From Escherichia phage SP27: a stretch of 64,000 nt of DNA. A program made the translations under genes and the position numbers. Positions 1-41,580 of the stretch are shown here, in pieces. Within the stretch, counting starts at the first letter, position 1. Each line of letters starts with the position of its first letter. A model generated the notes under the pieces. That model saw only the letters and a list, made by a program, of their open reading frames with translations. It was not told the origin of the DNA and searched no databases. The DNA is taken from the sequence record LC494302.1. The stretch is one strand, 5' to 3'.

Positions 1-185
1 GTGAGTTGATGTGGCACACCCTATCAAAAAAAGAAGGGACATTACCAGTTGATGATAATGGGCCAGAAGCACTTGATCAGTACATGTTCATTGATGATAC
101 ATTTGGCATTGACTATTCTGCATATCAGTGTATACTAGCTATACACGAAAAATATTACGACCGTCTACGTGACAGATTAATTTAA
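1..185 (+). CDS. 3' end of an upstream gene, 5' truncated by the window edge; hypothetical protein
   Basis: Open frame from the window start (…ELMWHTLSKKEGTLPVDDNGPEALDQYMF…RDRLI) ending at TAA 183-185. Confidence 0.3.
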   Translation, partial: ELMWHTLSKKEGTLPVDDNGPEALDQYMFIDDTFGIDYSAYQCILAIHEKYYDRLRDRLI

Positions 186-196
186 TTGGAGGCATT

Positions 197-319
197 ATGA
201 TTGCTATGTTAGAAGAAGATTGGGGTGTTTCCGAGCAAGGCACTGATGAATATGAATACCCAGAATATAAGCCCAAAGGCTTATGGGAACGTTTGCGTGA
301 TTGGTTGATGGGGGAATAA
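197..319 (+). CDS. Small hypothetical protein (41 aa), not in the ORF track
   Basis: ATG 197 preceded by GGAGG; MIAMLEEDWGVSEQGTDEYEYPEYKPKGLWERLRDWLMGE; stop lies 1 nt before the next gene's ATG. Confidence 0.35.
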   Translation: MIAMLEEDWGVSEQGTDEYEYPEYKPKGLWERLRDWLMGE

Positions 320-320
320 T

Positions 321-1433
321 ATGAAAAAGTATTTGGTTGGTGGCTACGTCCGTGACCGTTTAATGGGTCTTCGTGCAAAAGACAAAGATTATGTCATTGT
401 CGGAGCAACTGAATCTGATATTAAGTACTTGCAAAGTATTGGCTATAAGCAAGTAGGTAAGGATTTCCCTGTATATCTAAGTCCAGAAGGTAATGAACAC
501 GCATTAGCCCGTACTGAGCGTAAAACTGGTACTGGATATGGTGGCTTTGAAGTGGATACAAAAGGCGTAACACTCGAACAAGATTTGTATCGCCGTGACC
601 TAACAATAAATGCAATTTCGTATGATCCAGTACTACAAATTCACATTGATCCATACGGTGGTAAAGCTGATATCAAGAACAAGGTACTACGTCATGTTTC
701 TGACCATTTTAAAGAAGATCCATTACGTGTGTTACGTCTTGCTCGATTTGCTACTCGTTATTCAGACTTTACTATCCATGAAAGCACTGAGGAACTAGCT
801 ATTGGAATGGTCAATAGTGGTGAGCTAAATCATCTTGTTCCTGACCGTGTTTTTGTGGAATTCGAAAAAGCATTTTCCGAAGAAAAGCCTGCAAAGTTCC
901 TTAAGACGCTAAGTAAATTTGGTTATTACGAAAAGGTGTTTAATACATCTTTGACCAAAAAGAATTTAGACCTTATTGATTATATTGCAGAGAACTGTAC
1001 GGATGTATATAAACCATATTTTCTGTGGTCTATTCTTCTTGAAAATGAAGAAGTAAATAATGATTCAGTACTTAACGGTGCTATTAAAGTTCCAGTTAAG
1101 TATGTTAAATTTAGTAATTATATCAAACGTTTCCGTGATGATATCAAAACATTCCGTAAAAAGACCCCTATTGAAATGGGTAATATTTTATTGGATATGA
1201 ATATTAAAAATAACGGAGGTGAAGAATTCCTTTATGAAGTTTTGGAATACTTCATTTTGCGAAAAGAAATTGATTTAGAACTTGAAGATCTAATTATTAA
1301 AGTTTATGATCGTTATACTGATGTTGAATTGCCTGATATTCAGCAAATGGTCAAAGATGGTGAACTTGAAACGTCAGAAATTCGTGATTTTGTTTGTGAA
1401 CTTCGTTACGAAGCAATCAAACAAATGTTCTAA
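321..1433 (+). CDS. cca: tRNA nucleotidyltransferase (CCA-adding enzyme) head/neck/body; no HD phosphohydrolase domain
   Basis: GGYVRD start motif, ARTERKTGTGYGGF, RRDLTINAI, EDPLRVLRLARFATRY; near-collinear with the N-terminal half of E. coli Cca as recalled; RBS before ATG 321. Confidence 0.85.
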   Translation: MKKYLVGGYVRDRLMGLRAKDKDYVIVGATESDIKYLQSIGYKQVGKDFPVYLSPEGNEHALARTERKTGTGYGGFEVDTKGVTLEQDLYRRDLTINAISYDPVLQIHIDPYGGKADIKNKVLRHVSDHFKEDPLRVLRLARFATRYSDFTIHESTEELAIGMVNSGELNHLVPDRVFVEFEKAFSEEKPAKFLKTLSKFGYYEKVFNTSLTKKNLDLIDYIAENCTDVYKPYFLWSILLENEEVNNDSVLNGAIKVPVKYVKFSNYIKRFRDDIKTFRKKTPIEMGNILLDMNIKNNGGEEFLYEVLEYFILRKEIDLELEDLIIKVYDRYTDVELPDIQQMVKDGELETSEIRDFVCELRYEAIKQMF

Positions 1434-1439
1434 AAAATA

Positions 1440-1470
1440 GTGGGACAAAAAACCAATAACTGATATAATT
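1440..1470 (+). promoter_or_regulatory. Sigma70-like promoter (GTGGGACA -35-like, 16-nt spacer, TATAAT)
   Basis: AGTGGGACAA…TGATATAAT; the same motif recurs at 20548-20577. Confidence 0.4.
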
Positions 1471-1510
1471 ATTAGTATCTGAACATCGATTGATGACAAA
1501 GAGATAAGAT

Positions 1511-1943
1511 ATGCGTTATAGTTGTGGTATAATATTTTATCGTGATGGTCAGATACTTATCGGACATACAACACGGACAGAATCATTGGGATTTACCTAA
1601 AGGGAAAGCTGAGGGTAATGAAACTTTCAAAGAAGCTGCTGTACGTGAATGTTTCGAAGAGACAGGATACGAAATCGATGAAGATGATCTTCTGTTTCTT
1701 GGTGATGTATCCTATAGAAAGGGAAAAAGGTTAGTACTTTTCTTTTATACTGCCAAAGACAAACCAATACCAGATGAATTAGTTTGTAAAAGTACTTACA
1801 CTAATAGATATGGTAAGAGTCATCCAGAATTGGATAAGTTCATGTACATTGATGTACGAGAATGTCAAAAGTATTTGACTGAACGAATGTGTAACAGTAT
1901 TATTAAAGCTGTTAAAGCTTTTCAAAGAAATAGAAGGAAATAA
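1511..1943 (+). CDS. NUDIX hydrolase interrupted by an apparent +1 frameshift at about 1583-1590 (pseudogene, programmed frameshift or sequencing indel)
   Basis: ATG 1511 with AAGAGA RBS encodes MRYSCGIIFYRDGQILIGHTTRTES (Nudix first strand) and stops at 1598-1600; the Nudix box GKAEGNETFKEAAVRECFEETGY is in the 1542-1943 frame. Confidence 0.6.
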
Positions 1944-1944
1944 C

Positions 1945-2193
1945 ATGAAAGTTAAAATTTATGGTCGCAAGACTGGTTGTAAATTTTGCGACACTGCAAA
2001 AGCTGTATGTGAACAAAATAAATTTGAAATGGAGTTTGTAGATATTGTTGCTGAAGGTATCGATGGTTCAAAACTGTCTGAAATTTGTGGTGAACCAGTT
2101 CGTCAAGTTCCTCAAATTTTCGTAAATGACATTTATGTACCAGGTGGTTGTACTGGGTTTATTGAAGGTCTTAAAGAAGGTCGTTGGAACTAA
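1945..2193 (+). CDS. Glutaredoxin-like protein (T4 NrdC-like)
   Basis: 82 aa with a CKFC redox motif near the N-terminus and a VPQIFV…GG C-terminal pattern. Confidence 0.6.
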   Translation: MKVKIYGRKTGCKFCDTAKAVCEQNKFEMEFVDIVAEGIDGSKLSEICGEPVRQVPQIFVNDIYVPGGCTGFIEGLKEGRWN

Positions 2194-2435
2194 TGGATAT
2201 TGAAAAAGTATCATCTCGTGCAAAACAACTAGCTGATACGTTGGGAGTAGAGTTCAAAATTCCTGATATTTCAATAGCTAAAGAAAAAGCCCAGATTAAA
2301 ATTAACAAGATGAAAGAATATCTATCTAAACAAGAACAGTATGATTCCGCTGTCGAATTTATTGTAAAATCTTTTAGTAAAGAGGATATTTTGGAATTTA
2401 TCAAATATGTGAAGGTTTCTGGCAACCCTAAATAA
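2193..2435 (+). CDS. Hypothetical protein (80 aa)
   Basis: ATG 2193 overlaps the upstream stop (TAATG); the track's earlier start is a TTG. Confidence 0.5.
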   Translation: MDIEKVSSRAKQLADTLGVEFKIPDISIAKEKAQIKINKMKEYLSKQEQYDSAVEFIVKSFSKEDILEFIKYVKVSGNPK

Positions 2436-2481
2436 ATGTGAAGAACAAAAAGTTCTTCTTAACAATTTGGGAGATACTATT

Positions 2482-2724
2482 ATGCTCAGTTTTCGTGAAC
2501 AATTAGCAAAAGGTCAATTTCAGGCTAAAGCTCAAACTAATATTCCTAAAAAATCTGCATTTTTAGGAACAATTACGGAAGATGGATTTTGTGATTATGA
2601 TGCACCAGAAGATTCATGGTACATTACAAAAGACACAAAACGCAGTAATAGACTTCACAAAAGTACAATAGCTAGAAAGCATCGAAAAGAATTAAAGAAA
2701 ATCCGTTTCGGTGAAGAAGAATAA
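2482..2724 (+). CDS. Hypothetical protein with a basic C-terminus (80 aa)
   Basis: ATG 2482 preceded by GGGAGA; the track start at 2467 is a TTG. Confidence 0.5.
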   Translation: MLSFREQLAKGQFQAKAQTNIPKKSAFLGTITEDGFCDYDAPEDSWYITKDTKRSNRLHKSTIARKHRKELKKIRFGEEE

Positions 2725-2732
2725 TTTAAAAT

Positions 2733-2765
2733 AAGGACTCTGACCACAGAGTCCTTTCTTTTCGG
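2733..2765 (+). terminator. Rho-independent terminator
   Basis: AAGGACTCTG-ACCAC-AGAGTCCTT hairpin followed by a T-rich tract. Confidence 0.55.
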
Positions 2766-2773
2766 AGAATATA

Positions 2774-3250
2774 ATGATTCATGAACACCGAGGTAATCTG
2801 TTTGAATTATTCAGTACTGTAACAGATGATAAAACAGCAATACATATAATTGCTCATGGTTGTAACGCACAGGGTAAAATGGGTTCAGGTTTTGCAAAAG
2901 AGCTAAGAAATCGTTACCCAATGGCATATGATGATTATAAAGCATATGAAAAGGAAATGGGATTTCTTAGAATTGGACAAATTGCATATTCAGCAATTAA
3001 CGATAATTTGATTATTGCAAACTGTATTACCCAAAAAATGTACGGTAATGACGGTGCTAAATATGTCAGTTATGATGCAATCGACGATGTGTTCAAACAT
3101 CTAAATTATTTTTGTAAAGTTGATCGAGATGTTCATGTACACTTCCCGAAAATTGGAGCCGATTTGGGCGGCGGTAACTGGAACGTTATCAAAGAAATCA
3201 TTGATCACCGACTGGTCAATGCAGAAAAACACTTATACATTCTAAAATAA
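2774..3250 (+). CDS. Macrodomain protein of the DarG/TARG1 (OARD1) type; ADP-ribose hydrolase-like
   Basis: IAHGCNAQGKMGSGFAKEL and HFPKIGADLGGGNWNVI match the HCISxDxxMGAGIA / PRIGCGLD pattern of TARG1/DarG macrodomains, from memory. Confidence 0.65.
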   Translation: MIHEHRGNLFELFSTVTDDKTAIHIIAHGCNAQGKMGSGFAKELRNRYPMAYDDYKAYEKEMGFLRIGQIAYSAINDNLIIANCITQKMYGNDGAKYVSYDAIDDVFKHLNYFCKVDRDVHVHFPKIGADLGGGNWNVIKEIIDHRLVNAEKHLYILK

Positions 3251-3269
3251 ACAAAAGGACTTGACAAAA

Positions 3270-3578
3270 ATGACTATGACCGTTAAACTACTAAACATCA
3301 ATAACATTGGCCCAGTACTAGCAGTTCTTCAAACCGATTCTGCTGAAGCTGTTGTAGTTAACTACCCAGCACAACTAGGGACTGACGAAAATGGTGAAAT
3401 CATTCTTCGTGATTATCTAGAGTTTGTTAGTATGGAGAAAAATGTTATTTTTTATAAATCCAACATTATTAGTGTTAGTGATGCAAACCCTGCATTAGTT
3501 GATGCTTATGTTGATGCTATTAAAGCAATCGAAAACACTCCAAAAGTTTTCGTTCCTGAGAATAAAATCATTCTATAA
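3270..3578 (+). CDS. Hypothetical protein (103 aa)
   Basis: ATG 3270 after AAAGGAC; the track start at 3261 is a TTG. Confidence 0.5.
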   Translation: MTMTVKLLNINNIGPVLAVLQTDSAEAVVVNYPAQLGTDENGEIILRDYLEFVSMEKNVIFYKSNIISVSDANPALVDAYVDAIKAIENTPKVFVPENKIIL

Positions 3579-3590
3579 TAGAGGTATATA

Positions 3591-3968
3591 ATGGCTGCTA
3601 ATGACGTTAAAGTAAAAACTATCCAAGCTATCGTAGTACTGAAAGATTCTACACCATCCCCTAAAGAATTAGTAATGGCTGGGATGACTATGTTACATCA
3701 ATACAACCCTGAATCACCTAACTATGTTCAAGAATACGAAGCTAAGAAGTTTAAAGAACATTGGCAGTCATGGATTAAAGATAATGAAATGGAGCAGGTA
3801 GTTTATGCTGCTGATGACATTTTCGAACTGGAACAAATTGAATATCTAGCTGGTCAGCAATCAGTACCATTGAGCATTTTCGGTAATGGTGAAGAAGTTC
3901 TGGTATTGGGACCATTCACTGCTGATGATATCATTCACTTACTGAGTAATTGTAAGAAAATTGAATAA
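3591..3968 (+). CDS. Hypothetical protein; weak resemblance to the PTH2 peptidyl-tRNA hydrolase fold
   Basis: ATG 3591 after AGAGGTA; C-terminal EEVLVLGPFTADDIIHLL resembles the PTH2 TVLGIGPGPADLID segment, by eye only. Confidence 0.5.
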   Translation: MAANDVKVKTIQAIVVLKDSTPSPKELVMAGMTMLHQYNPESPNYVQEYEAKKFKEHWQSWIKDNEMEQVVYAADDIFELEQIEYLAGQQSVPLSIFGNGEEVLVLGPFTADDIIHLLSNCKKIE

Positions 3969-4184
3969 AAATTCGAAACTATCAGGTTACCGTAACAACA
4001 CGTTGAAGTACAATGATATTAAGTACTGGGTTGATCCTTACTTAAATAAATCATTGTTAATGTACAGAGATAAATCACGAGATCTATATGGAATATATGT
4101 TACTCAGTTAATATATATAATAGATTCCGAACATTTTACTCCATTGGTATACCTGTACTGCTTGTATAATTCAAAATAACTATT

Positions 4185-4230
4185 AGCACCTCTAAATAAT
4201 GTATATAAACATTAATGAGGTGCTTTTTTA
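4185..4230 (+). terminator. Rho-independent terminator (long imperfect hairpin plus T6)
   Basis: AGCACCTC…GAGGTGCT stem with an inner AATGT/ACATT stem, followed by TTTTTT. Confidence 0.45.
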
Positions 4231-5021
4231 TGTCTTACGATTATATGGGTGGAAACCCTGATGCTCCTAACTTTGACCATCGTGAAAAACTGAAAGATGT
4301 TATCACTCAAATGTTGGGTGCTGGGGCCGTTGAGGTAGAAATTACTGATGGTCAATTAGAAATTGCAATTGATAATGCGGTATCGAATTACAGAGCGTGG
4401 AGTTCTGCTTCTAAAGAAGAAGCATTTTTAAATATGAAATTTTATGATTCACAATCTGTATATATGCTACCAACTGAAGTTGAAATTGTTAAAAAGATTT
4501 ATCGTTATGGTAATGGTTACTTAAGTTCTGGTAGTGGGAACTCAGTAGATCCGTTTTCTCTAGCATTCACCAACACTTACTTATTGACTTCAGCACGAAA
4601 TGCAGGTGGATATGATCTAACTACATATGATTTTAGTTTTCAGTTCCAAGAACTGGTAGGTCGTATGTTTGGTCGTGATATTATATTTCAATTTAACCCA
4701 ATGACCAAAAAATTAATTATAGATCGTGATATTCGCGGTACTGAAGAAGTACTATTACACGTATATCATAATATTCCTGAACCATTGTTGTTTCAAAGAC
4801 AGCAAAGTTATCCTTGGCTACGTGATTGGGCATTGTCTGAAGCCATGATTATGTTGGGTCGTAACCGTGCCAAATTTGCTTCTCTTCCAGGTCCACAGGG
4901 AACGTTTTCTATGGATGGTGATACATTACGTAATGAAGGATTACAACTTCAGGAACAGCTTAAAGAGCGTTTGAAACGTTATCAAGATGGTGCTGAACCA
5001 CTAGGTATGATTATTGGATAA
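4230..5021 (+). CDS. Hypothetical protein, possibly virion-associated (neck-like?)
   Basis: Second in-frame ATG chosen because the first (4215) lies inside the terminator hairpin; MSYDYMGGNPDAPNF…. Confidence 0.5.
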   Translation: MSYDYMGGNPDAPNFDHREKLKDVITQMLGAGAVEVEITDGQLEIAIDNAVSNYRAWSSASKEEAFLNMKFYDSQSVYMLPTEVEIVKKIYRYGNGYLSSGSGNSVDPFSLAFTNTYLLTSARNAGGYDLTTYDFSFQFQELVGRMFGRDIIFQFNPMTKKLIIDRDIRGTEEVLLHVYHNIPEPLLFQRQQSYPWLRDWALSEAMIMLGRNRAKFASLPGPQGTFSMDGDTLRNEGLQLQEQLKERLKRYQDGAEPLGMIIG

Positions 5022-5025
5022 ATTA

Positions 5026-5053
5026 AAAAAGACTCCTATATGGAGTCTTTTTC
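5026..5053 (+). terminator. Rho-independent terminator
   Basis: AAAGACTCC-TATAT-GGAGTCTTT hairpin then TTT. Confidence 0.5.
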
Positions 5054-5071
5054 ACATTATGTGATATAATG
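5036..5071 (+). promoter_or_regulatory. Early-type promoter with extended -10 (ATGTGATATAAT)
   Basis: TCACAT-T-ATGTGATATAAT about 27 nt upstream of ATG 5098; weak -35. Confidence 0.4.
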
Positions 5072-5097
5072 ATAATATTAATCTTAAGGAACCTAAC

Positions 5098-5367
5098 ATG
5101 AATAACAACATAGATGCAATGTATAACAAATATAGTTGTGGTGCACCTACATTAGATTATGAGTCAACAGAAAAATTCTGGAAATTTTTAAAAGAATCAA
5201 TCGTTGATGTTTTCGGTAGAGAACGAATAAACGCGTGGGCGAGTATATGTCGTGATGATAATGGAGAAACATTCTACATCACTTATGTTACTATATATTA
5301 TGGGAGCGAGTTTATAGTTCAATTACTTGAATGTTTAGTAGGAAAGGATTTAGTGGTACTTATATAA
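5098..5367 (+). CDS. Hypothetical early protein (89 aa)
   Basis: ATG 5098 after AAGGAA; directly downstream of the promoter-like element. Confidence 0.5.
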   Translation: MNNNIDAMYNKYSCGAPTLDYESTEKFWKFLKESIVDVFGRERINAWASICRDDNGETFYITYVTIYYGSEFIVQLLECLVGKDLVVLI

Positions 5368-5385
5368 TATACATGGAGAAGTATT

Positions 5386-6012
5386 ATGGAAAGACAAATA
5401 ATTGCAATTAACGGTACTATTGGAAGTGGTAAAGATACTTTTGGAGAAACTTTTATTAATAATGGTTACACCAGAATGTCATTTGCAACTAATCTTAAAG
5501 ATTCTGTTGCTGCTATTTTTGGATGGGATCGTGAAATGCTTGAAGGTTCAACTAAGGAAAGTCGTAAGATTCGTGAAGAACCGGACCAGTACTGGTGTGA
5601 TAAGTTAGGTCGTAATGATGTATCCCCTCGATGGGTATTGCAGAATTATGGTACTAATATTTTGCGTAAGTATTTTCATAATGATATTTGGGTATTCAGT
5701 TTAGAAAAATCAATGCAAGACATAGATGGAAATATCATCATCACTGATTGCCGTTTTCCAAATGAATTAAAAATGATTAGATCGAATAATGGGACTATTA
5801 TTGAAGTTCAACGTGTTCTACCACATTGGTATGGTTTGGCGGCCTCTTATAATAAAGGGGATATTAATATTAAACCAGTTGAACTAGAATCAGTACACGA
5901 ATCTGAGTGGGCTTGGATTGGCATAAACAATCCTGATATAATTGTACAGAATAACAGTACTATTGATGATTTACATAAAAAAGCAATGGACATTATTTAT
6001 TCTAATACATAA
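5386..6012 (+). CDS. Deoxynucleoside monophosphate kinase (T4 gp1-like)
   Basis: P-loop GTIGSGKDT and ITDCRFPNELKMIRSNNGTIIEVQR, resembling the T4 gp1 DTRQ…ATVIHVVR region from memory. Confidence 0.7.
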   Translation: MERQIIAINGTIGSGKDTFGETFINNGYTRMSFATNLKDSVAAIFGWDREMLEGSTKESRKIREEPDQYWCDKLGRNDVSPRWVLQNYGTNILRKYFHNDIWVFSLEKSMQDIDGNIIITDCRFPNELKMIRSNNGTIIEVQRVLPHWYGLAASYNKGDINIKPVELESVHESEWAWIGINNPDIIVQNNSTIDDLHKKAMDIIYSNT

Positions 6013-6106
6013 ATTATAAACAATAAGGACTGGACAATTAAATCCTTCAATAAATAAGACTATACGAATATATTTCGAATAACCAATTATTTTTGGAGGA
6101 TTTAAT

Positions 6107-8770
6107 ATGGCAGGAGATCTACTCTCACCTGGCGTTTCCATTTCAGTAACTGATGAAAGTATGAGTACCGCTGCTGCTCCTGGCACTGTACCACTATTTG
6201 TAATCGCTACTGCTGAAGACAAACTTGTCCCAGGAAGCAGTGCAATTGCTGCGGGAACTACTAAAGCAAACGCTGGAAAACTACAGCTTCTAACATCACA
6301 AAAAAGCTCACTTGATACCTATGGTACACCAATTTTTCAAATGAATAACGGTTCTGTTGTTCAAGGTGATGAACTAAACGAATATGGCCTACATGCAGTA
6401 TATTCTTATCTAGGCATTACTAACCGTGCATATGTAATTCGTGCTGATATCGATCTAGCACAACTAGCACCAAGTGCTGAAGCACCAACTGGCCCAGTAT
6501 CCAATGGTACTTTGTGGTTTGATACCGCACAATCACAAGTAGAAGCGTATGTAGCGAAGAAAGATAGTCCAAGCAGTTTTTATGATTGGCAACTTAAGCC
6601 AGTAACTATTGTAAGTGCTGAAGAAGTTGAAGATGTAAGTCTAGTAGGTTTAAATGTTGATGATTTAGTTCTACGTTACAAACCAAGCAATGGTCAGATG
6701 CTAATGTATAAACGTTCTGCTTCTGGGCTAGTGCAAATGGAAACTTATCTATCACCAATTAACAAAGTTCCAGTTGGCTCAACTGTAGAAAAAGGTAACA
6801 TTTGGATTCGTGATGGTTACACCCAAAATGGTTCAAACTATTTTGGTACTCGTTTTGTTATTAAACGTTATGCATCCCTAACTCAAGTTTGGAATATTGT
6901 ACCAGCATATACTGGTAATTCATTCCAAGAAATTGAAGCGAAAAGTGGTGTACTAAACAATAGTTATATCGCATCTCGTTTTGATGAAGATAGTAAGAGT
7001 TTCTCTTTCTATATTCAAAGTGCAAAACTAACAACAATTAGTGCTCCTGCTTTGCCACTTGGTGAAACTATTATTGAACAAGCAGGTGCTGATAGTTATA
7101 TGACTTTTGTTTATTTGAATAAATCAGTTAAAGTACTAGCAGTTCCACAAGGCGGTGTTATTAATACCCAAACTATCATCAATAATCTAAATGCAAATGT
7201 TGAAATTATTAACGATGGTTTTAAATTTAAACGTGAAACTAATGGTGGTTTAGTTGTTTCCAATACAAAAGGTTACAGTTTCAAAATCACACAAAGTGGT
7301 GATGATATTTTTGCTGAATCTGAACTACAAAAACTAACAGTAGATAGTAACAACTACTCTCTAATTAACGTGAATAACTTCCGTGTTAGTTATTCAGTAC
7401 CACGTAGTGTAGCAAAAGAAGGAACTCTCTGGTATGATTTCGGGAACTCCGATAATCTAACTGTAACTATGTATGTTGCTGATGTTGCTAATGATGAATG
7501 GGATCTAGTACAAGAAGAAAACAAATATGTACAAGTTGATGAACCAGCGGCTGACCGTTTAATTTGGGTTTGTCCTTTATCCCAAGGCATTGATGGTTAT
7601 GATTTCTATCGTAACGTTGATGGTGAATGGGTTAAACTTGACAGTACTGATCAAAGTACACTAAATGGTATGATTTTCCAAGACTTTAATTTCCCAAGCC
7701 AAGTTCCTGCTGCGGCATTGTATCAAAATGGTATGCTTGCAGTTGACCTAGGTAACACTGAAGGTGTTGTTAAGAAAATGGTTAATGGTCAATGGGAAGT
7801 TGTTAGTGGTGTAAGTCTTGATGGTGCTGGCCTATTTGGTCGTGCTGCACAACGTCAACTAGTAGTTGAAGCACTAGCTGCTGTTATTATTGGTAATGAT
7901 GACATTCGTTCTGAATTTATTGATTTTAACCTAATTTGTGTACCTGGTTACGTTGAAACACTTGATGAATGTGTAACTTTAAACACTGATCGTAAAGAAA
8001 CTGCATTTATTGTTACTGACGTTCCAGCACGTTTGAATCCAACTGGAAACGGTAGTGCTGTACAACAATGGGCTACTAATGCTAACAATGCACCAAGCAA
8101 CGGTTCAGTTGGTCGTACAACTGCTTATGATTATGCTGCTCAGTATATGGGTTGGTGTCTAAGTACTAACGTTGATGGTGAAGAAGTTGCAGTTCCTGGT
8201 AGTACTATTGCAATGCGTACATATGCATACAGTGATAGTGTTAGTTATGTATGGTATCCACCTGCTGGTACAACTCGTGGTGTTGTAACAAACGCTGCAA
8301 GTACTGGTTTTATCAACAGCGAAGGTGAATATCAACCAGTAGTATACAACCAAGGTCAACGTGACGTTATGTATACTAACAACATTAACCCAATTGCAAT
8401 GCGTCCTAACCGTGGTTTGCTTGTTTATGGAGATAAAACTCTATCTGCTAATCAAACTTCTGCACTAAGTCGTGTTAACGTTGCTCGTTTAGTTGTTTAT
8501 ATTCGTCGTCAACTAGAAATTATTTCCGAACCATTCCTATTCCGTTTGAATACTCCAAGTACTCGTCAGGAATTTAGTGGTGTAGTTAATAGCTTCTTGG
8601 CTGAAATTGTTCAACAACAGGGTCTTTATAACTTCGCAGTGGTTTGTGATGAAAGTAACAACACCGCAGAGCGTATTGACCGTAATGAACTTTGGATGGA
8701 TATTGCAATTCAACCAACTAAGAGTATTAACTTCATTTACGTACCAATCCGTATCGAGAAAACTCAATAA
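6107..8770 (+). CDS. Contractile tail sheath protein (T4 gp18 family, extended to 887 aa)
   Basis: C-terminus VARLVVYIRRQLE…FAVVCDESNNTAERIDRNELWMDIAIQPTKSINFIYV parallels the recalled T4 gp18 RVVCDTTNNTPSVIDRNEF…IQPARSINYI. Confidence 0.9.
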   Translation: MAGDLLSPGVSISVTDESMSTAAAPGTVPLFVIATAEDKLVPGSSAIAAGTTKANAGKLQLLTSQKSSLDTYGTPIFQMNNGSVVQGDELNEYGLHAVYSYLGITNRAYVIRADIDLAQLAPSAEAPTGPVSNGTLWFDTAQSQVEAYVAKKDSPSSFYDWQLKPVTIVSAEEVEDVSLVGLNVDDLVLRYKPSNGQMLMYKRSASGLVQMETYLSPINKVPVGSTVEKGNIWIRDGYTQNGSNYFGTRFVIKRYASLTQVWNIVPAYTGNSFQEIEAKSGVLNNSYIASRFDEDSKSFSFYIQSAKLTTISAPALPLGETIIEQAGADSYMTFVYLNKSVKVLAVPQGGVINTQTIINNLNANVEIINDGFKFKRETNGGLVVSNTKGYSFKITQSGDDIFAESELQKLTVDSNNYSLINVNNFRVSYSVPRSVAKEGTLWYDFGNSDNLTVTMYVADVANDEWDLVQEENKYVQVDEPAADRLIWVCPLSQGIDGYDFYRNVDGEWVKLDSTDQSTLNGMIFQDFNFPSQVPAAALYQNGMLAVDLGNTEGVVKKMVNGQWEVVSGVSLDGAGLFGRAAQRQLVVEALAAVIIGNDDIRSEFIDFNLICVPGYVETLDECVTLNTDRKETAFIVTDVPARLNPTGNGSAVQQWATNANNAPSNGSVGRTTAYDYAAQYMGWCLSTNVDGEEVAVPGSTIAMRTYAYSDSVSYVWYPPAGTTRGVVTNAASTGFINSEGEYQPVVYNQGQRDVMYTNNINPIAMRPNRGLLVYGDKTLSANQTSALSRVNVARLVVYIRRQLEIISEPFLFRLNTPSTRQEFSGVVNSFLAEIVQQQGLYNFAVVCDESNNTAERIDRNELWMDIAIQPTKSINFIYVPIRIEKTQ

Positions 8771-8776
8771 AACACT

Positions 8777-8806
8777 AAGGGAACCTTTTGGTTCCCTTTT
8801 TTATTG
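8777..8806 (+). terminator. Rho-independent terminator after the sheath gene
   Basis: AGGGAACC-TTTT-GGTTCCCT followed by TTTTTTATT. Confidence 0.6.
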
Positions 8807-8849
8807 ATTAAAATTAAATACCTTTATATTGATGTTATAAAGGAACATT

Positions 8850-8975
8850 ATGGATATGGAAGAAATACTAAAAAAAACAATACAAGATGTCAGTAAAATA
8901 GTTTTAACTCAGTTGGAATCAGTACACATACTAAATATATTTTTAAAAAATTTGGAAGATTGTCGGTATAATTGA
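8850..8975 (+). CDS. Possible small ORF (41 aa) in the sheath-tube intergenic region
   Basis: ATG 8850 after AAAGGAAC; MDMEEILKKTIQDVSKIVLTQLESVHILNIFLKNLEDCRYN; below the ORF-track cutoff. Confidence 0.2.
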   Translation: MDMEEILKKTIQDVSKIVLTQLESVHILNIFLKNLEDCRYN

Positions 8976-9165
8976 AAAATACGAAGTATACACAAATGGA
9001 AAATGGTCTATATCAGTAAACTATATTGACCACACTAAACGAAAAAGATACTTATATTGTGTTAATATTAATTGGTTCCCTGTTGATGACACTTTAGTTA
9101 ATTAAAAATATACTTCCAGATAGATAAATAATATAAAGATGTCATTCCATAATAGGAGAATATAA

Positions 9166-9852
9166 ATGGCTACAATGCTTGATCGATATGGCGTACCGCT
9201 CGCTGGCGGTGGTCGTATCTCTATGAAACAACCAAAAGCAAAATACAAATTTCGTGTTATTTTCTTTGGTTTTGGTACTAATGATGATGGTAATATGATT
9301 ACACTAGACACCAATACAGTTGGGGCAGTATCTGTATCACATGAAAATGTTACTGTTCATAGTTACAACAGTTCTGCACACTATAAAGGTAAGTACACTT
9401 GGGATACAATTGATGTTGCTTTCCGTGACTCAGTAGGTAATGCTTCTGCTAAAGCACTATACAACCAAATGCGTAAAGAATTCAACTACTACAGTCAAGA
9501 ATCTCGCATGACAGATTCACAATTTAAATTTGAAATGTGGATTCAAGAGCTTGATGGTTCTAATAGTGAAAATACAACAAACTTGTTTGAAGGAACATTG
9601 AGTACTTGGGTATGTCAAGGTTGCTTTATTGAATCCAGCAACTTTGGTGATTGGGATTATTCCTCAAGTGAAGCACAAGTTATTTCAATGACTGTTCAAC
9701 CAGATGGTTGTGCTAAATTGGGTCCAAATGGCGAAGCGTTCGGTGATGAAGTTAGTGGCTTCGGTAATCCATCAACTGCTACCTCTATTTCTGGTGCACA
9801 AACTAATATTAGTAGTACTACTCTACCAGATAGTAACTTCTACGAAAATTAA
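9166..9852 (+). CDS. Tail tube protein (paralog 1)
   Basis: Directly downstream of the sheath gene; YGVPLAGGGRISMKQPKAKYKFRVIFFGFG is shared with the next gene. Confidence 0.55.
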   Translation: MATMLDRYGVPLAGGGRISMKQPKAKYKFRVIFFGFGTNDDGNMITLDTNTVGAVSVSHENVTVHSYNSSAHYKGKYTWDTIDVAFRDSVGNASAKALYNQMRKEFNYYSQESRMTDSQFKFEMWIQELDGSNSENTTNLFEGTLSTWVCQGCFIESSNFGDWDYSSSEAQVISMTVQPDGCAKLGPNGEAFGDEVSGFGNPSTATSISGAQTNISSTTLPDSNFYEN

Positions 9853-9873
9853 TTTTATTTAAACTTAATATAT

Positions 9874-9903
9874 AGCCTCGAATCTATTCGGGGCTTTTTT
9901 TAT
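9874..9903 (+). terminator. Rho-independent terminator
   Basis: AGCCTCGAA-TCTA-TTCGGGGCT hairpin followed by T7. Confidence 0.55.
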
Positions 9904-9946
9904 GCTAAATAAAGTATAATGCCTTATAAAATAAAAAGAGGTTGCT

Positions 9947-10723
9947 ATGGCAAATAACATGATTAATAAATATGGCGTTCCTTTACCATCGGGGCGTAAT
10001 CGTTCAATGCTACAACCGAAAGCAAAATACAAGTTTCGTGTTATTGTGTATAATTTCGGTACTGATATAGATGAACGTGATCACATCGCATTAGATGTTG
10101 ATAAAATTGATAGACCTACTGTAACATTTAGTACTCATAAACTATATCAATTTACTACTAATACTTCCTATATAGGTAGTCATGATTGGGAACCAATTAC
10201 AATATCTATCCGTGATTCAGTTGGTAATGCATCAGCAAAAGCATTATCACGACAATTACAAAAACAACTTGACTTTCAACGTAGAATAACTTCCAGAAAT
10301 GACCAAGATTATGGTTCTTATAAATTTGGTTTGGTTATACAGATGTTGAGTGGACGTAACTCAGATGATACACTAGGAAATCTAGGAAGAGATACTCTAG
10401 TAGATGCTGCAACTGCTGCAACAAATAATTCTGGCTTAGTAAATGCAGTAGATCAATTTATTGGTGGTTCTTCATATAACAGTGCTGGTGTTATGGAATA
10501 CTTTGTTTTAACCGGATGTGTTATTCAAAACATATCATACGATTCATTAGATTATAGCTCAAGTTCTCCAGTTGAAATGGTAGTTACTATCAAACCAGAT
10601 AATTGTATACAATTTGATAATATTGAAGAAATGTATAGTACCAGAATTAATTCACTTTTACCTGAAAATGTCAATCAAGGTTTAGATATCATTGATCGTG
10701 TTTTTGGTAGTGTAGGATTTTAA
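9947..10723 (+). CDS. Tail tube protein (paralog 2)
   Basis: YGVPLPSGRNRSMLQPKAKYKFRVIVYNFG parallels the previous gene; RBS AAGAGG. Confidence 0.55.
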   Translation: MANNMINKYGVPLPSGRNRSMLQPKAKYKFRVIVYNFGTDIDERDHIALDVDKIDRPTVTFSTHKLYQFTTNTSYIGSHDWEPITISIRDSVGNASAKALSRQLQKQLDFQRRITSRNDQDYGSYKFGLVIQMLSGRNSDDTLGNLGRDTLVDAATAATNNSGLVNAVDQFIGGSSYNSAGVMEYFVLTGCVIQNISYDSLDYSSSSPVEMVVTIKPDNCIQFDNIEEMYSTRINSLLPENVNQGLDIIDRVFGSVGF

Positions 10724-10734
10724 GGAGATAATGA

Positions 10735-12842
<2,108 letters not shown>

Positions 12843-13409: not shown

Positions 13410-13952
13410 ATGAGTATACTTAATGAAATGTTAGATTATGAAGACAATGAGTTAAATGAAGCTCGTCCTTATAGTCGTTCACAAAGTGCAGTTGATAGTG
13501 CAAAAGGAAAAGTAAAAGGCTTTTTTGGTAGTGGACAGATTGAACAAGGTGCACAAGAAGTTGGTGCTGAAGCCAACCGCTTATGGGCAGAGTTTAAACG
13601 TTATGTTGGACGTAAATATGGTAAAGCTCAACCATCAGTACCTTACGCTGATGTGGCACAGTTTTTTAAAGGTAACAATCTTGATATTAAACATTTAGGG
13701 AACAATCCTCGTCGTTCTTTTACACCAAAAGATGTAGGTACTGCTCTATTAAATGCTGCTCGTGATATAATGAATGACTACCGTGACCAACAAGGTGGCG
13801 AAGAAAGTTCAGAATCACAACCATCACAATCGACCTCAACTGAGCAACCAGCACAACAAGAACAACCAAAAGCACAAGGTTCCAGTATCCCTGATGCTCT
13901 ACAAAAATTAAGTCCAGAGCAACGCGACCAACTGTTACGTATGCTTTCTTAA
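13410..13952 (+). CDS. Hypothetical protein with a Q/S/E-rich tail (180 aa)
   Basis: ORF with AAGGAT RBS. Confidence 0.5.
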   Translation: MSILNEMLDYEDNELNEARPYSRSQSAVDSAKGKVKGFFGSGQIEQGAQEVGAEANRLWAEFKRYVGRKYGKAQPSVPYADVAQFFKGNNLDIKHLGNNPRRSFTPKDVGTALLNAARDIMNDYRDQQGGEESSESQPSQSTSTEQPAQQEQPKAQGSSIPDALQKLSPEQRDQLLRMLS

Positions 13953-17386: not shown

Positions 17387-17414
17387 TTGACAAGTTGAAA
17401 CGATGTGATATAAT
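17387..17414 (+). promoter_or_regulatory. Strong sigma70-like promoter (repeat copy 1)
   Basis: TTGACA 17387-17392, 16-nt spacer, extended -10 TGATATAAT; upstream A-tract resembles an UP element. Confidence 0.55.
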
Positions 17415-17480: not shown

Positions 17481-17508
17481 TTGACAAGTTGAAACGATGT
17501 GATATAAT
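17481..17508 (+). promoter_or_regulatory. Strong sigma70-like promoter (repeat copy 2)
   Basis: Identical to copy 1, 94 bp downstream. Confidence 0.55.
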
Positions 17509-20547: not shown

Positions 20548-20577
20548 GTGGGACAACTTATAAAAATATGATATAAT
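20548..20577 (+). promoter_or_regulatory. Sigma70-like promoter (GTGGGACA-16-TATAAT), second copy of the motif at 1440
   Basis: AAGTGGGACAACTTATAAAAATATGATATAAT. Confidence 0.4.
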
Positions 20578-22113: not shown

Positions 22114-23042
22114 TGAAACAACTACAAGAACTATATCAAAAAATTCTAGATGAAGGCGTAGAAAGCGTTGACCGTACTGGTGTTGGAACAATCAAACTTA
22201 TCGGTCAACAAATGCGTTTTGACCTTAAAGATGGTTTCCCAGCAGTGACGACAAAACGTCTAGCTTGGAAAGCAATGACTTCAGAATTACTATGGTTTAT
22301 TGAAGGTTCCCATGATGAGCGTCGCCTTTGTGAAATTTTGCATGGAACTCGTGATACAGAAAAGAAAACTATTTGGACAGATAATTACCTAAATCAAGGC
22401 GTTGCTCTTGGTTATACTGATGGTGAGTTAGGTCCAGTGTATGGTAAGCAATGGCGTGAATGGGAAGATTATAAATTTAGTTCCAGTACTGAAGAAATTC
22501 AAGAATTAAAAGATAAAGGATACAAAGTTATCGATTATACTGGTTCACATGGTGTTGTTATGAAACGTACAACTGACCAATTACAAGAACTAATCAAAGG
22601 TATAAAGTCCGATCCATATGGCCGTCGCCACATTCTAAGTGCATGGAACGTTGGTGAGCTTGATGATATGACGTTACCACCTTGTCATAGCTTTGTGCAA
22701 TTTTGTGTAGTGCAAGGAAAACTAAGCTGTATTCTGCATCAACGCTCCGCTGATCTATTTTTAGGAGTTCCATTTAATATCAGTAGTTACTCACTACTAA
22801 CTCATATGATTGCACAAATTACTGGTTTAGATGTTGGTGAATTTATTTGGAATGGTGGTGATTGTCACATTTATAAAAACCACGTTGAACAAGTAAAAGA
22901 GCAACTACAGCGAAAACCTCGTGAATTACCTGAATTGTGGCTTGATCCTACAATTACTAATATTGAAGATTTCACTATGGATTCTTTTAAATTAGTGAAT
23001 TACAACCCAATGCCAACAATTAAAGCACCTATGGCTGTATAA
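22113..23042 (+). CDS. thyA: Thymidylate synthase (ThyA / T4 td-like), uninterrupted
   Basis: DRTGVGT, catalytic PPCH, QRSADLFLGVPFNISSYSLL, C-terminal IKAPMAV; collinear with E. coli ThyA plus one insertion. Confidence 0.9.
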   Translation: MKQLQELYQKILDEGVESVDRTGVGTIKLIGQQMRFDLKDGFPAVTTKRLAWKAMTSELLWFIEGSHDERRLCEILHGTRDTEKKTIWTDNYLNQGVALGYTDGELGPVYGKQWREWEDYKFSSSTEEIQELKDKGYKVIDYTGSHGVVMKRTTDQLQELIKGIKSDPYGRRHILSAWNVGELDDMTLPPCHSFVQFCVVQGKLSCILHQRSADLFLGVPFNISSYSLLTHMIAQITGLDVGEFIWNGGDCHIYKNHVEQVKEQLQRKPRELPELWLDPTITNIEDFTMDSFKLVNYNPMPTIKAPMAV

Positions 23043-38676: not shown

Positions 38677-40020
38677 TTATTTGTCAGTGAAAGTTATTTT
38701 CCAATATCCCTGACGATACACAGGCATGATACTTTTATGCCATTTAAATTTGTCATTATATCTATAATAACCATTGTCTTCTTTATTATAAATGTAATTT
38801 CGTACAGTAGATGGATCAATTAATTGTGCACCATCATTTGTAATTTTAAACAAATAATTTGATGGGATTTCGGTTTCTTTATAAATGATGTTATGTATAC
38901 TGTTATTTACATAATATTGTTCAGGTAATGCACTTGAAAGTACTGAATCTTTCTGCACAAACCCATGTATAGTGTAATCAACAGTATAATTGGTATTATC
39001 AAGCTGTACTATAATTTTGTTGGCATCTTCATTTTCACCATACGACGCTATATGACCTTTTAGTGGGTTGTCTTCTTCAATAGATTGTTGAAATTTAATC
39101 CCTACTTTTTTGTCATCAAAATTTGGTTCTAGATATTTAAGATATTTTTCCCATGAATATATTCCACCGTTGGGAGAAACCGCAGATAGCGATTGGCTAA
39201 CCAAGGTAAGTTGGTATGTATCAGGTAAATTATACTTGGAATTAGTAATTTCTTCAACTTTAATGCATAAATTCTTGGGTGTAAAAACATCTGTTATTAT
39301 ATCTGAATAATTTCCCATTTCAAAATCAAATTCGTCACGAGCACCTTTAATATTTGTAGTAATCTGTTGGATTAATTTTGGTTTTTCAACAATAGCTGGT
39401 AAAGAAAACCATATTGTCGTTTCAAATGTTAAAACCATTATATCCAAATCTGGGTCAGTTCCTTGTGGAAAACCACGAGTAGAAAACTGACAATCTATTA
39501 GTTCAACATCACTAAGCGATGTCCAATCTAACGGGTTATCAGATAATTGAAGTTGTATACTAGGTGCAAACAAAGTTGAGATTTGTTCGAATAATTCCAT
39601 TTTAGTTTGAGTTTGAGTTACCCAAATATTCAAATCAAACGTAAAAGTCCAAGGTACTGGGTTATGTCTTACAATTTTGTATTGTGTGTCAAGATCTTTT
39701 GTGTACTCATTAATAGCAGGGGACTTGTTAGACCCCATTACTATAGTTTCGTTGGCATTAGAACGAATATTTTTACGATCCAACTTTAGTTGATTAACAC
39801 TTATGGTCATTATAGGTGCTGATGGGAGAACATTTTCACTATTCCCATTTATAATTGCTGCTGCCATTCTTGAAATATCGGCATAGCGACATGGAACCTT
39901 TTTGTATTTTGGGTTTCCATTAGCATCAATACCATTTTGTACTTGAAATTCACCAAAAACTCTGATAAGATGTTTCAGTACTCTGCGAAATTGACCGTCA
40001 TAATAATAATCTATTTTCAT
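38677..40020 (-). CDS. Hypothetical structural protein (baseplate/tail?)
   Basis: 447 aa; start overlaps the upstream stop (ATGA); co-oriented with the next structural gene. Confidence 0.45.
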   Translation of the reverse strand: MKIDYYYDGQFRRVLKHLIRVFGEFQVQNGIDANGNPKYKKVPCRYADISRMAAAIINGNSENVLPSAPIMTISVNQLKLDRKNIRSNANETIVMGSNKSPAINEYTKDLDTQYKIVRHNPVPWTFTFDLNIWVTQTQTKMELFEQISTLFAPSIQLQLSDNPLDWTSLSDVELIDCQFSTRGFPQGTDPDLDIMVLTFETTIWFSLPAIVEKPKLIQQITTNIKGARDEFDFEMGNYSDIITDVFTPKNLCIKVEEITNSKYNLPDTYQLTLVSQSLSAVSPNGGIYSWEKYLKYLEPNFDDKKVGIKFQQSIEEDNPLKGHIASYGENEDANKIIVQLDNTNYTVDYTIHGFVQKDSVLSSALPEQYYVNNSIHNIIYKETEIPSNYLFKITNDGAQLIDPSTVRNYIYNKEDNGYYRYNDKFKWHKSIMPVYRQGYWKITFTDK

Positions 40021-41552: not shown

Positions 41553-41580
41553 TAGACAAACCGTAAGAATGTGATATAAT
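41553..41580 (+). promoter_or_regulatory. Sigma70-like promoter with extended -10 upstream of the ClpA-like gene
   Basis: TAGACA-16-TGTGATATAAT; the ATGTGATATAATG core is shared with the promoters at 5060 and 17400. Confidence 0.5.

What the first reader, a model, noticed from the sequence alone, without database searches (positions are those of the whole stretch)
2774..3250. DarG/TARG1-type macrodomain in the early region (candidate counter-defence against ADP-ribosylation)
The HGCNAQGKMGSGFA and PKIGADLGGGNW motifs match the TARG1/DarG macrodomain class, which removes ADP-ribose from protein and DNA. DarT-type toxins of defence systems ADP-ribosylate DNA, so a phage-encoded DarG-like hydrolase is a plausible reversal enzyme.
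Basis: partly seen in the sequence, partly recalled or inferred. Interest (0 to 1): 0.6.

Follow-up and report, generated by a model that had tools for sequence, protein, structure and literature searches.

The report
Phage macrodomain, Gln-type ADP-ribose remover
This gene of a jumbo E. coli phage encodes a small macrodomain enzyme, related to proteins that strip ADP-ribose off DNA, so it probably protects the phage from the bacterial DarTG2 defence; it belongs to a widespread phage family and is not a new kind of system.

Summary
The ORF (2774-3250, +, 158 aa) and both quoted motifs are real. The window is an Asteriusvirus jumbo coliphage (99.5% identical to phAPEC6). RefSeq already calls the PBECO4 orthologue a "macro domain-containing protein".

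A high-confidence model (pLDDT 95.9) and profile searches put the protein in the ALC1-like macrodomain class, which holds TARG1, DarG, SCO6735 and Poa1p.

It is not TARG1/DarG-type in its active site. The catalytic Lys (DarG K80, TARG1 K84) is an invariant Gln (Q87), and TARG1 Asp125 is Gly. Its nearest solved relatives are Bt_1257 and SCO6735.

Two Gln-type members have been tested. SCO6735 cleaves thymidine-linked ADP-ribose from DarT-modified DNA. T4 Tk.4 ("AdfM"; 30% identical) is needed for T4 to grow on DarTG2 hosts.

The counter-defence idea is therefore plausible (about 0.55) but already established for homologues. "Early region" is not supported: the gene sits beside neck and tail genes, directly after a terminator-like hairpin, with no promoter of its own.

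One oddity remains. A Gly-to-Asp change (D130) in the second glycine-rich loop is nearly fixed in this phage clade.

This is a new member of a known kind, of modest interest.

The parts
2774..3250 (+). Macrodomain gene (158 aa plus stop). It is the orthologue of PBECO4 gp028 and phAPEC6 gp283c.
2855..2896 (+). First motif, HGCNAQGKMGSGFA (residues 28-41). This is glycine-rich loop 1, with invariant H28, G29, N31 and G39. N31 aligns with DarG N22, PhiKZ AdfM N23 and SCO6735 N27.
   Evidence: Column counts in the 70-sequence family alignment and the reference alignment. N22/N23 are named as active-site residues in PMC13309987.
3032..3034 (+). Codon CAA for Gln87, in the column of the catalytic Lys of DarG (K80), PhiKZ AdfM (K78) and TARG1 (K84). 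It is equivalent to SCO6735 Gln85.
   Evidence: Gln in 70/70 relatives. SCO6735 Q85A abolishes activity (PMC9411070).
3035..3070 (+). Loop after Gln87 (residues 88-99, KMYGNDGAKYVS). It is 3 residues longer than in DarG/TARG1 and carries the conserved K96. It corresponds to the 'mobile loop' of SCO6735.
   Evidence: Reference alignment. K96 is Lys in 60/70 relatives. The long, Lys-bearing mobile loop is described for SCO6735 in PMC9411070.
3146..3181 (+). Second motif, PKIGADLGGGNW (residues 125-136), glycine-rich loop 2. D130 (nt 3161-3163) replaces a Gly found in all solved relatives. G132 occupies the column of TARG1 Asp125.
2762..2765 (+). GGAG ribosome-binding site, 8 nt upstream of the ATG.
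   Evidence: Read directly from the sequence.
2733..2756 (+). Terminator-like hairpin (10-bp stem, 5 G-C pairs, 4-nt loop) followed by TCTTTTC. It separates the upstream Nudix-glutaredoxin unit from the macrodomain gene.
   Evidence: Terminator scan and intergenic sequence.
1442..1522 (+). Nearest upstream sigma-70-like promoter candidates, including the extended -10 TGATATAAT at 1461-1469. Reaching the macrodomain gene from here would require read-through of the hairpin.
   Evidence: Promoter scan. TGATATAAT is enriched five-fold in the window, 10 of 11 copies on the + strand. That these drive the gene is inference only.

Best explanation
[quoted passage not shown] The two glycine-rich loops (residues 28-41 and 125-136) bind the ADP-ribose diphosphate and distal ribose. 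N31 and the invariant Q87 position the distal ribose, and hydrolysis proceeds by a lysine-independent, water-mediated route as proposed for SCO6735. The most likely physiological substrate is ADP-ribose attached to thymidine in single-stranded phage DNA by the host toxin DarT2. Removing it would restore replication and let the phage escape DarTG2 defence, as an orphan-antitoxin counter-defence of the 'AdfM' type. Shown here: the fold, the class, the active-site composition, conservation and genomic context. Inferred: the substrate, the catalytic route and the counter-defence role.
Against: No experiment exists for this protein or its genus. Identity to the tested homologues is only 28-30%, and macrodomain substrate range shifts within classes: SCO6735 also acts on Glu-linked protein ADPr and on U-ADPr RNA. 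Two SCO6735 residues tied to DNA activity are not conserved (Val25 is Gly29, Lys34 is Ser38). D130 replaces a Gly that is universal in the solved relatives, with unknown effect. The gene is a conserved syntenic core gene of this jumbo-phage lineage, present even in a Xanthomonas phage and flanked by tRNA- and translation-related genes. That pattern is less typical of an accessory anti-defence gene. Aravind and colleagues argue that phage macrodomains mainly target soluble ADPr derivatives (PMC9503650).
Confidence: 0.55

Rival explanations
1. The protein processes soluble ADP-ribose derivatives. In this reading it hydrolyses ADP-ribose-1''-phosphate (the Poa1p activity behind the 'phosphatase' and 'Appr-1-p processing' annotations), O-acetyl-ADP-ribose, or ADPr-based immune signals or toxins, and the neighbouring Nudix enzyme then degrades the released ADP-ribose.
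Against: Poa1p has Ser, not Gln, in the Q87 column (alignment). The protein is closer to Bt_1257 and SCO6735 than to Poa1p. The Nudix next door shows no specific similarity to ADP-ribose pyrophosphatases; its best PDB hits are generic MutT or Ap4A hydrolases at E of about 1e-5. No Tpt1/KptA or 2H enzyme was seen among the annotated neighbours.
Confidence: 0.17
2. The protein reverses ADP-ribosylation of RNA or protein. Candidate substrates are uracil-linked ADPr on RNA, Glu/Asp-linked ADPr on proteins modified by host defence ADP-ribosyltransferases, or modifications made by the phage's own ADP-ribosyltransferases.
For: SCO6735 hydrolyses PARP-type protein ADPr and U-ADPr on ssRNA. The translation-related neighbourhood would fit an RNA or ribosome target.
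Against: No ADP-ribosyltransferase is annotated in the roughly 85 kb examined around the gene. SCO6735 is inactive on 2'-OH RNA ADPr, and the results section of PMC11833690 reports it inactive on 5'-phosphate-linked ADPr of RNA and DNA, although that paper's discussion calls it active on RNA phosphate ends. CmdT-type adenine RNA modification is described as irreversible. No bacterial defence that uses U-ADPr or Glu-ADPr against coliphages came up in the papers read.
Confidence: 0.15
3. The protein is a non-catalytic ADP-ribose binder (a reader or sponge), or it neutralises an ADP-ribosyltransferase by direct binding. The loss of the catalytic Lys and the Gly-to-Asp change in loop 2 would then mark loss of hydrolase activity.
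For: K80/K84 and D125 are absent. D130 sits in a loop whose backbone normally contacts the diphosphate. ALC1, which also carries Gln in that column, is a binder (stated in PMC9411070). SCO6735 and DarG also inhibit DarT by interaction.
Against: Gln-type SCO6735 is the most active T-ADPr hydrolase of those compared. N31, Q87 and both Gly-rich loops are under strict conservation. T4 Tk.4, also Gln-type, confers protection.
Confidence: 0.08

Closest known systems
T4 Tk.4 = AdfM (anti-DarT factor Macrodomain), bioRxiv 10.1101/2025.11.20.689424
   Same: Both are stand-alone phage macrodomains of about 155 aa. They are 30% identical (E=2e-12). They share H-G-C-N in loop 1, the N-x-x-T-Q motif with Gln in the catalytic-Lys column, and IGAG/IGAD...GNW in loop 2. 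They score almost equally against DarG models (32.9 vs 30.3 bits NCBIfam; 39.2 vs 36 bits PADLOC). Both come from E. coli myoviruses.
   Different: Tk.4 has a short loop after the Gln (1 residue shorter than DarG, 4 shorter than here) and Gly where this protein has D130. Tk.4 sits among T4 prereplicative genes (tk, vs, regB), whereas this gene abuts the neck and tail module. Only Tk.4 has a demonstrated DarTG2 phenotype.
SCO6735 (Streptomyces coelicolor) and Bt_1257 (Bacteroides thetaiotaomicron), the Gln-type subclass of ALC1-like macrodomains (PDB 5E3B, 2FG1/2AFC)
   Same: These are the closest solved structures by sequence and fold. They share Gln at the catalytic column, Asn in loop 1, and an extended Lys-bearing loop after the Gln. 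SCO6735 cleaves T-linked ADPr-DNA and protects against DarT.
   Different: They are cellular proteins, not phage proteins, and only 27-29% identical. SCO6735 Val25 is Gly29 here, Lys34 is Ser38, and the loop is 1-2 residues shorter here. Loop 2 reads GCGLAGG in them and GADLGGG here. They are basic (pI 9-9.6) while this protein is near neutral (pI 6.7).
DarG antitoxin macrodomain (T. aquaticus 5M31/5M3E, M. tuberculosis 5M3I) and PhiKZ gp104 AdfM
   Different: The catalytic Lys (K80/K78, motif FPTK) is Gln here (CITQ). There is no C-terminal DarT-binding domain and no adjacent darT gene. The NCBIfam DarG score is 32.9 bits here against 137.8 for PhiKZ gp104.
Human TARG1/OARD1 (4J5R/4J5S)
   Different: The Lys84/Asp125 dyad is Gln87/Gly132 here. 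The single-sequence search against PDB did not find TARG1 at E<=10, and pairwise BLAST gives 20% identity.
Yeast Poa1p (6LFQ-6LFU), ADP-ribose-1''-phosphate phosphatase
   Different: Poa1p has Ser in the Q87 column, and in the single-sequence search only its N-terminal half aligns significantly (residues 5-92).

Membership tests
Macrodomain superfamily (Pfam PF01661 Macro) | Three-layer alpha/beta/alpha fold with a central mixed sheet and an ADP-ribose cleft lined by two Gly-rich loops. | tested here: met
ALC1-like macrodomain class (TARG1, DarG, SCO6735, Poa1p, ALC1) | Closest sequence and structure relatives fall within this class, not among MacroD, PARG or viral Mac1 types. | tested here: met
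DarG antitoxin | Catalytic lysine (T. aquaticus K80) in the F-P-T-K motif. | tested here: not met
   Gln87 occupies the column and is invariant in 70/70 relatives.
DarG antitoxin | Two-domain protein (macrodomain plus C-terminal DarT-binding domain) encoded next to darT, scoring above the NCBIfam NF048014 equivalog cut-off. | tested here: not met
   The protein is 158 aa with a single domain. It scores 32.9 bits against a cut-off of 250, matching only model positions 18-139 of 338. Its neighbours are Nudix, glutaredoxin, small ORFs and a neck protein, with no ADP-ribosyltransferase.
TARG1/OARD1 | Lys84-Asp125 catalytic dyad. | tested here: not met
   The corresponding residues are Gln87 and Gly132. 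The TARG1 sequence used was verified against PDB 2LGR.
SCO6735/Bt_1257 Gln-type subclass | Gln in place of the catalytic Lys (SCO6735 Gln85), held in position by the loop-1 Asn. | tested here: met
   Q87 and N31 are invariant and align to Gln85 and Asn27.
SCO6735/Bt_1257 Gln-type subclass | Mobile loop about 5 residues longer than in DarG/TARG1, carrying Lys residues. | tested here: inconclusive
   The loop is 3 residues longer than in DarG/TARG1, against +4 for SCO6735 and +5 for Bt_1257 in the same alignment. K96 is conserved in 60/70 relatives, but K88 is variable.
SCO6735/Bt_1257 Gln-type subclass | Val/Ile25 (backbone positions the proposed catalytic water) and Lys34 (DNA positioning). 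| tested here: not met
   Gly29 (invariant) and Ser38 (62/70) occupy those columns, and the neighbouring K35 is variable among K, R and V. The Val25 role is backbone-mediated, so the effect of this change is unclear.
AdfM-type phage anti-DarTG2 factor (T4 Tk.4) | Homology to T4 Tk.4 with the same active-site composition. | tested here: met
   30% identity, E=2e-12, and a shared N-x-x-T-Q motif. Both fall in phrog_335. That PHROG also contains Lys-type PhiKZ gp104, so co-membership alone does not discriminate.
AdfM-type phage anti-DarTG2 factor (T4 Tk.4) | Required for phage growth on DarTG2 hosts, and removes DarT2-made ADP-ribose from DNA. | not testable with these tools
   This needs plaque assays and in vitro de-ADP-ribosylation. 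No data for Asteriusvirus were found in the papers searched.
Poa1p-type ADP-ribose-1''-phosphate phosphatase | Appr-1''-p phosphatase activity with the Poa1p active-site composition. | tested here: inconclusive
   The fold and profile similarity is strong, but Poa1p has Ser where this family has the invariant Gln. The activity is not testable here.

The most novel reading that the evidence does not exclude
The enterobacterial Rak2-like jumbo-phage clade has a derived active site, combining Gln87 with a nearly fixed Gly-to-Asp change (D130) in the diphosphate/distal-ribose loop. It also has conserved synteny with tRNA- and translation-related genes (HPF, CCA-adding enzyme, Nudix, YqeY, PTH2-like). 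Together these could mark a macrodomain with a new catalytic arrangement, in which Asp130 acts as the general base that the Gln-type enzymes otherwise lack. Alternatively they could mark a substrate other than DarT2-modified DNA, such as ADP-ribosylated tRNA, mRNA or ribosomal components.
Probability: 0.12. Interest if true: 0.55.

Novelty: new member of a known kind. Interest (0 to 1): 0.3.

Why it matters
If the inference holds, Asteriusvirus phages, which are being characterised as therapeutic candidates, carry a built-in escape from DarTG2. DarTG2 is a defence found in E. coli and clinical P. aeruginosa strains, so this bears on host-range prediction.

More generally, the comparison shows that the phage macrodomains now being named "AdfM" are of two mechanistically different kinds. 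The Lys-type is DarG-like (PhiKZ gp104). The Gln-type is SCO6735-like (T4 Tk.4, this protein, and every other phage homologue sampled here). I did not find that distinction made in the AdfM papers read. It matters for choosing catalytic-dead mutants: Q87A or N31A would be appropriate, not a Lys mutant.

Tried and rejected
- Pfam alone gave a sub-threshold Macro hit. I rejected it as a sufficient test, and structure and profile searches were decisive instead.
- I first took PHROG 335 co-membership with T4 Tk.4 as evidence of orthology. I downgraded this after PhiKZ gp104 (Lys-type) also scored 8e-43 in the same PHROG.
- K88, next to Q87, was considered as a displaced catalytic lysine. I rejected it because the column is mostly Glu in relatives (31/70) and Lys in only 7/70.
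- Net charge and pI were tried as a proxy for DNA binding. This is uninformative, because the proven DNA-ADPr hydrolase PhiKZ AdfM has pI 5.05.
- A virion-delivered enzyme was considered. phAPEC6 gp283c is absent from the part of the published virion mass-spectrometry table that I saw, which lists the neighbours gp277c and gp280c.
- The adjacent Nudix was considered as a dedicated ADP-ribose pyrophosphatase partner. It has no specific similarity, only generic MutT/Ap4A-hydrolase hits.
- Three Asteriusvirus genome papers were searched for macro, NADAR, ADP-ribosylation or timing data, and nothing was found.
- I did not scan the remaining roughly 280 kb of the phage genome for NADAR or ADP-ribosyltransferase genes.

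Full report
**1. What is there**

The window encodes an ORF at 2774-3250 on the + strand (158 aa). It has an ATG start, and GGAG lies 8 nt upstream. HGCNAQGKMGSGFA is residues 28-41 and PKIGADLGGGNW is residues 125-136.

The first 8 kb of the window are 99.5% identical to the jumbo coliphages phAPEC6, CRJP21 and JP4. They are 99.2% identical to PBECO4, the type of the genus Asteriusvirus.

The gene is PBECO4 gp028, already annotated in RefSeq as "macro domain-containing protein". In phAPEC6 it is gp283c, "hypothetical protein". Other records call it "Appr-1-p processing domain protein" or "phosphatase".

**2. Is it a macrodomain, and of which kind?**

Pfam's Macro model is only marginal: 16.4 bits against a cut-off of 22, E=0.009. 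Everything else is clear.

- The single sequence finds Bt_1257 (E=7.9e-16), SCO6735 (7.9e-12), Poa1p (8.6e-7) and weakly DarG (2e-3, 2e-2) among solved structures.
- A 70-sequence family alignment used as a profile gives Bt_1257 1.6e-26, SCO6735 1.5e-20, Poa1p 2e-16, DarG 4-6e-14, TARG1 3e-12 and ALC1 0.018.
- An AlphaFold2 model built from that alignment is very confident: pLDDT 95.9, pTM 0.91.

The protein therefore belongs to the ALC1-like class that contains TARG1 and DarG.

**3. The active site is not DarG/TARG1-type**

I assembled reference sequences as follows.

- TARG1 came from a recalled sequence that proved identical to PDB 2LGR.
- The DarG macrodomains came from the alignments printed.
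- Bt_1257 and SCO6735 came.
- T4 Tk.4 came from NC_000866.
- PhiKZ gp104 came from NC_004629.

In the MAFFT alignment, the catalytic lysine of T. aquaticus DarG (K80), Mtb DarG, PhiKZ AdfM (K78) and TARG1 (K84) falls in the motif T-K. This protein has T86-Q87 there, as do Bt_1257, SCO6735 (Gln85) and T4 Tk.4 (N-L-Y-T-Q).

Q87 is invariant in 70/70 relatives. The adjacent K88 is mostly Glu, so it is not a displaced catalytic lysine. TARG1's Asp125 column is Gly132.

The models agree. The NCBIfam DarG equivalog gives 32.9 bits (cut-off 250) and PADLOC DarG gives 39.2 bits. These are nearly the same as T4 Tk.4 (30.3 and 36), whereas PhiKZ gp104 scores 137.8 and 132.9.

**4.

The Gln-type branch has been studied. 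SCO6735 lacks both TARG1/DarG catalytic residues, yet it efficiently removes thymidine-linked ADP-ribose from DarT-modified ssDNA. It rescues E. coli and S. coelicolor from DarT, and Q85A inactivates it. A backbone- and water-mediated mechanism was proposed (PMC9411070).

In phages, a transposon screen of T4 on a DarTG2 host gave tk.4 as the single significant hit. A clean knockout sensitised T4, and the authors named the gene adfM (10.1101/2025.11.20.689424).

PhiKZ gp104, also named AdfM, removes DarT2-made ADP-ribose from DNA, and N23 is required (PMC13309987).

This protein is 30% identical to T4 Tk.4 (E=2e-12). In a common BLAST comparison it is somewhat closer to Bt_1257 (74 bits) and SCO6735 (63 bits) than to Tk.4 (48 bits), DarG (36-42 bits) or TARG1 (23 bits).

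I sampled seven further phage homologues: Mooglevirus, Pakpunavirus, Barbavirus, a Bacillus phage, rV5, Kuttervirus and Xanthomonas jumbo phage XaC1. All have Gln in that column.

Phage "AdfM" proteins are therefore of two kinds, Lys-type (PhiKZ) and Gln-type (T4 and this protein). PHROG 335 lumps both together.

**5. Differences from the characterised Gln-type enzymes**

- SCO6735 Val25 and Lys34 correspond to Gly29 (invariant) and Ser38 here.
- The loop after the Gln is 3 residues longer than in DarG/TARG1. This compares with +4 for SCO6735, +5 for Bt_1257 and -1 for T4 Tk.4. It carries a conserved K96.
- In loop 2, the Gly present in every solved relative and in Tk.4 (G-x-G-L) is Asp130 here (IGADLGGGNW).
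- This Asp is present in nearly all relatives that are at least 55% identical. More distant relatives mostly have Gly (a few have Ala or Val).
- It recurs in the Rheinheimera and Bacillus phage homologues. I cannot explain it.

**6. Context**

Upstream on the same strand lie a CCA-adding enzyme (321-1433), a Nudix hydrolase (1542-1943), a glutaredoxin (1945-2193) and two small ORFs. Downstream lie two small ORFs, the gp13-like neck protein, dNMP kinase, tail sheath and tail tubes. The remainder of the window is dominated by tail-fibre and baseplate genes.

A strong terminator-like hairpin (2733-2756, then TCTTTTC) ends 17 nt before the start codon, and no sigma-70-like promoter lies between them. 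The nearest promoter candidates are upstream of the Nudix gene at 1442-1522. "Early region" is therefore unsupported, and timing is unknown.

The protein is absent from the part of the phAPEC6 virion mass-spectrometry table that I saw, which includes its neighbours gp277c and gp280c.

The block HPF, CCA enzyme, Nudix, Grx, (YqeY), macro, (PTH2-like), neck, dNMP kinase, sheath is conserved in Xanthomonas phage XaC1, whose macro protein is 47% identical. The 8-kb block aligns over at least 80% of its length in 35 phage records from six host genera. So this is a lineage-core gene, not a recent accessory acquisition.

**7. Rivals**

(a) Processing of soluble ADPr derivatives (Poa1p-like Appr-1''-p phosphatase, OAADPr, immune signals). 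This is favoured by the Poa1p similarity, the tRNA-related neighbourhood and the argument in PMC9503650. It is weakened because Poa1p has Ser in the Gln column and because the Nudix neighbour shows no ADPR-specific similarity.

(b) Reversal of RNA or protein ADP-ribosylation. SCO6735 also acts on Glu-ADPr protein and U-ADPr RNA. However, no ADP-ribosyltransferase is annotated nearby, and no matching coliphage defence came up in the papers read.

(c) A non-catalytic binder. Strict conservation of the catalytic-site residues and the activity of SCO6735 and Tk.4 make this unlikely.

**8. Verdict**

The class assignment is right and the sub-type assignment is wrong. The functional hypothesis is plausible and has already been demonstrated for homologues, but it is untested for this phage.

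This is a new member of a known kind, from a family found in about 1,800-2,800 phage records. Its modest interest comes from two points. One is the Lys-type versus Gln-type split among phage anti-DarT macrodomains. The other is the clade-specific Asp130.

Noticed in passing
window 1461-1469, 5062-5070, 5934-5942, 11661-11669, 13763-13771, 17406-17414, 17500-17508, 20569-20577, 41572-41580, 55997-56005 (+ strand); 1117-1125 (- strand): The extended -10-like nonamer TGATATAAT occurs 11 times against 2.2 expected, with 10 copies on the coding (+) strand. The copies at 1461 and 5062 are intergenic, and the latter sits just after a hairpin. They look like sigma-70-type promoters scattered among structural genes.
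   Followed up: partly
window 3161-3163 (codon GAT, Asp130 of the macrodomain): A Gly-to-Asp substitution in the second glycine-rich loop is present in nearly all relatives at least 55% identical. It is absent from all solved ALC1-like structures and from T4 Tk.4. It recurs in the Rheinheimera and Bacillus phage homologues. Its functional meaning is unknown.
   Followed up: partly
window 321-6012; L006 (Xanthomonas phage XaC1) 70-7360; L001 (PBECO4) 4391-12011: The gene order HPF/RaiA, CCA-adding enzyme, Nudix, glutaredoxin, (YqeY in XaC1), macrodomain, (weak PTH2 in XaC1), neck protein, dNMP kinase, tail sheath is conserved between jumbo phages of E. coli and Xanthomonas. A tRNA- and translation-flavoured cluster is embedded next to the tail module.
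   Followed up: partly
L003 (PhiKZ) 22518-23003 compared with window 2774-3250: PHROG 335 ('phosphatase') contains both Lys-type (PhiKZ gp104) and Gln-type (T4 Tk.4 and this protein) macrodomains. Its 'phosphatase' label and its membership therefore say little about mechanism.
   Followed up: yes
window 1542-1943: The Nudix hydrolase two genes upstream of the macrodomain (phrog_1185) is annotated 'NudE' in phAPEC6. It has only generic MutT/Ap4A-hydrolase similarity to solved structures, so its substrate is undetermined. By the JP4 annotation, a second Nudix gene lies further along the window.
   Followed up: partly
window 5028-5050 and 8777-8798: Further strong hairpin-plus-T-run terminator-like sites lie after the neck gene and after the tail-sheath gene. 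Across 1-9500, 9 such sites were found against 3.7 expected, which suggests many short transcription units.
   Followed up: no
L005 (JP4) 9277-9888 and 39340-40764; L013 28055-28819: Several HNH endonuclease genes are interspersed in the structural region of the closely related phage JP4. I did not check whether all are present in this window.
   Followed up: no
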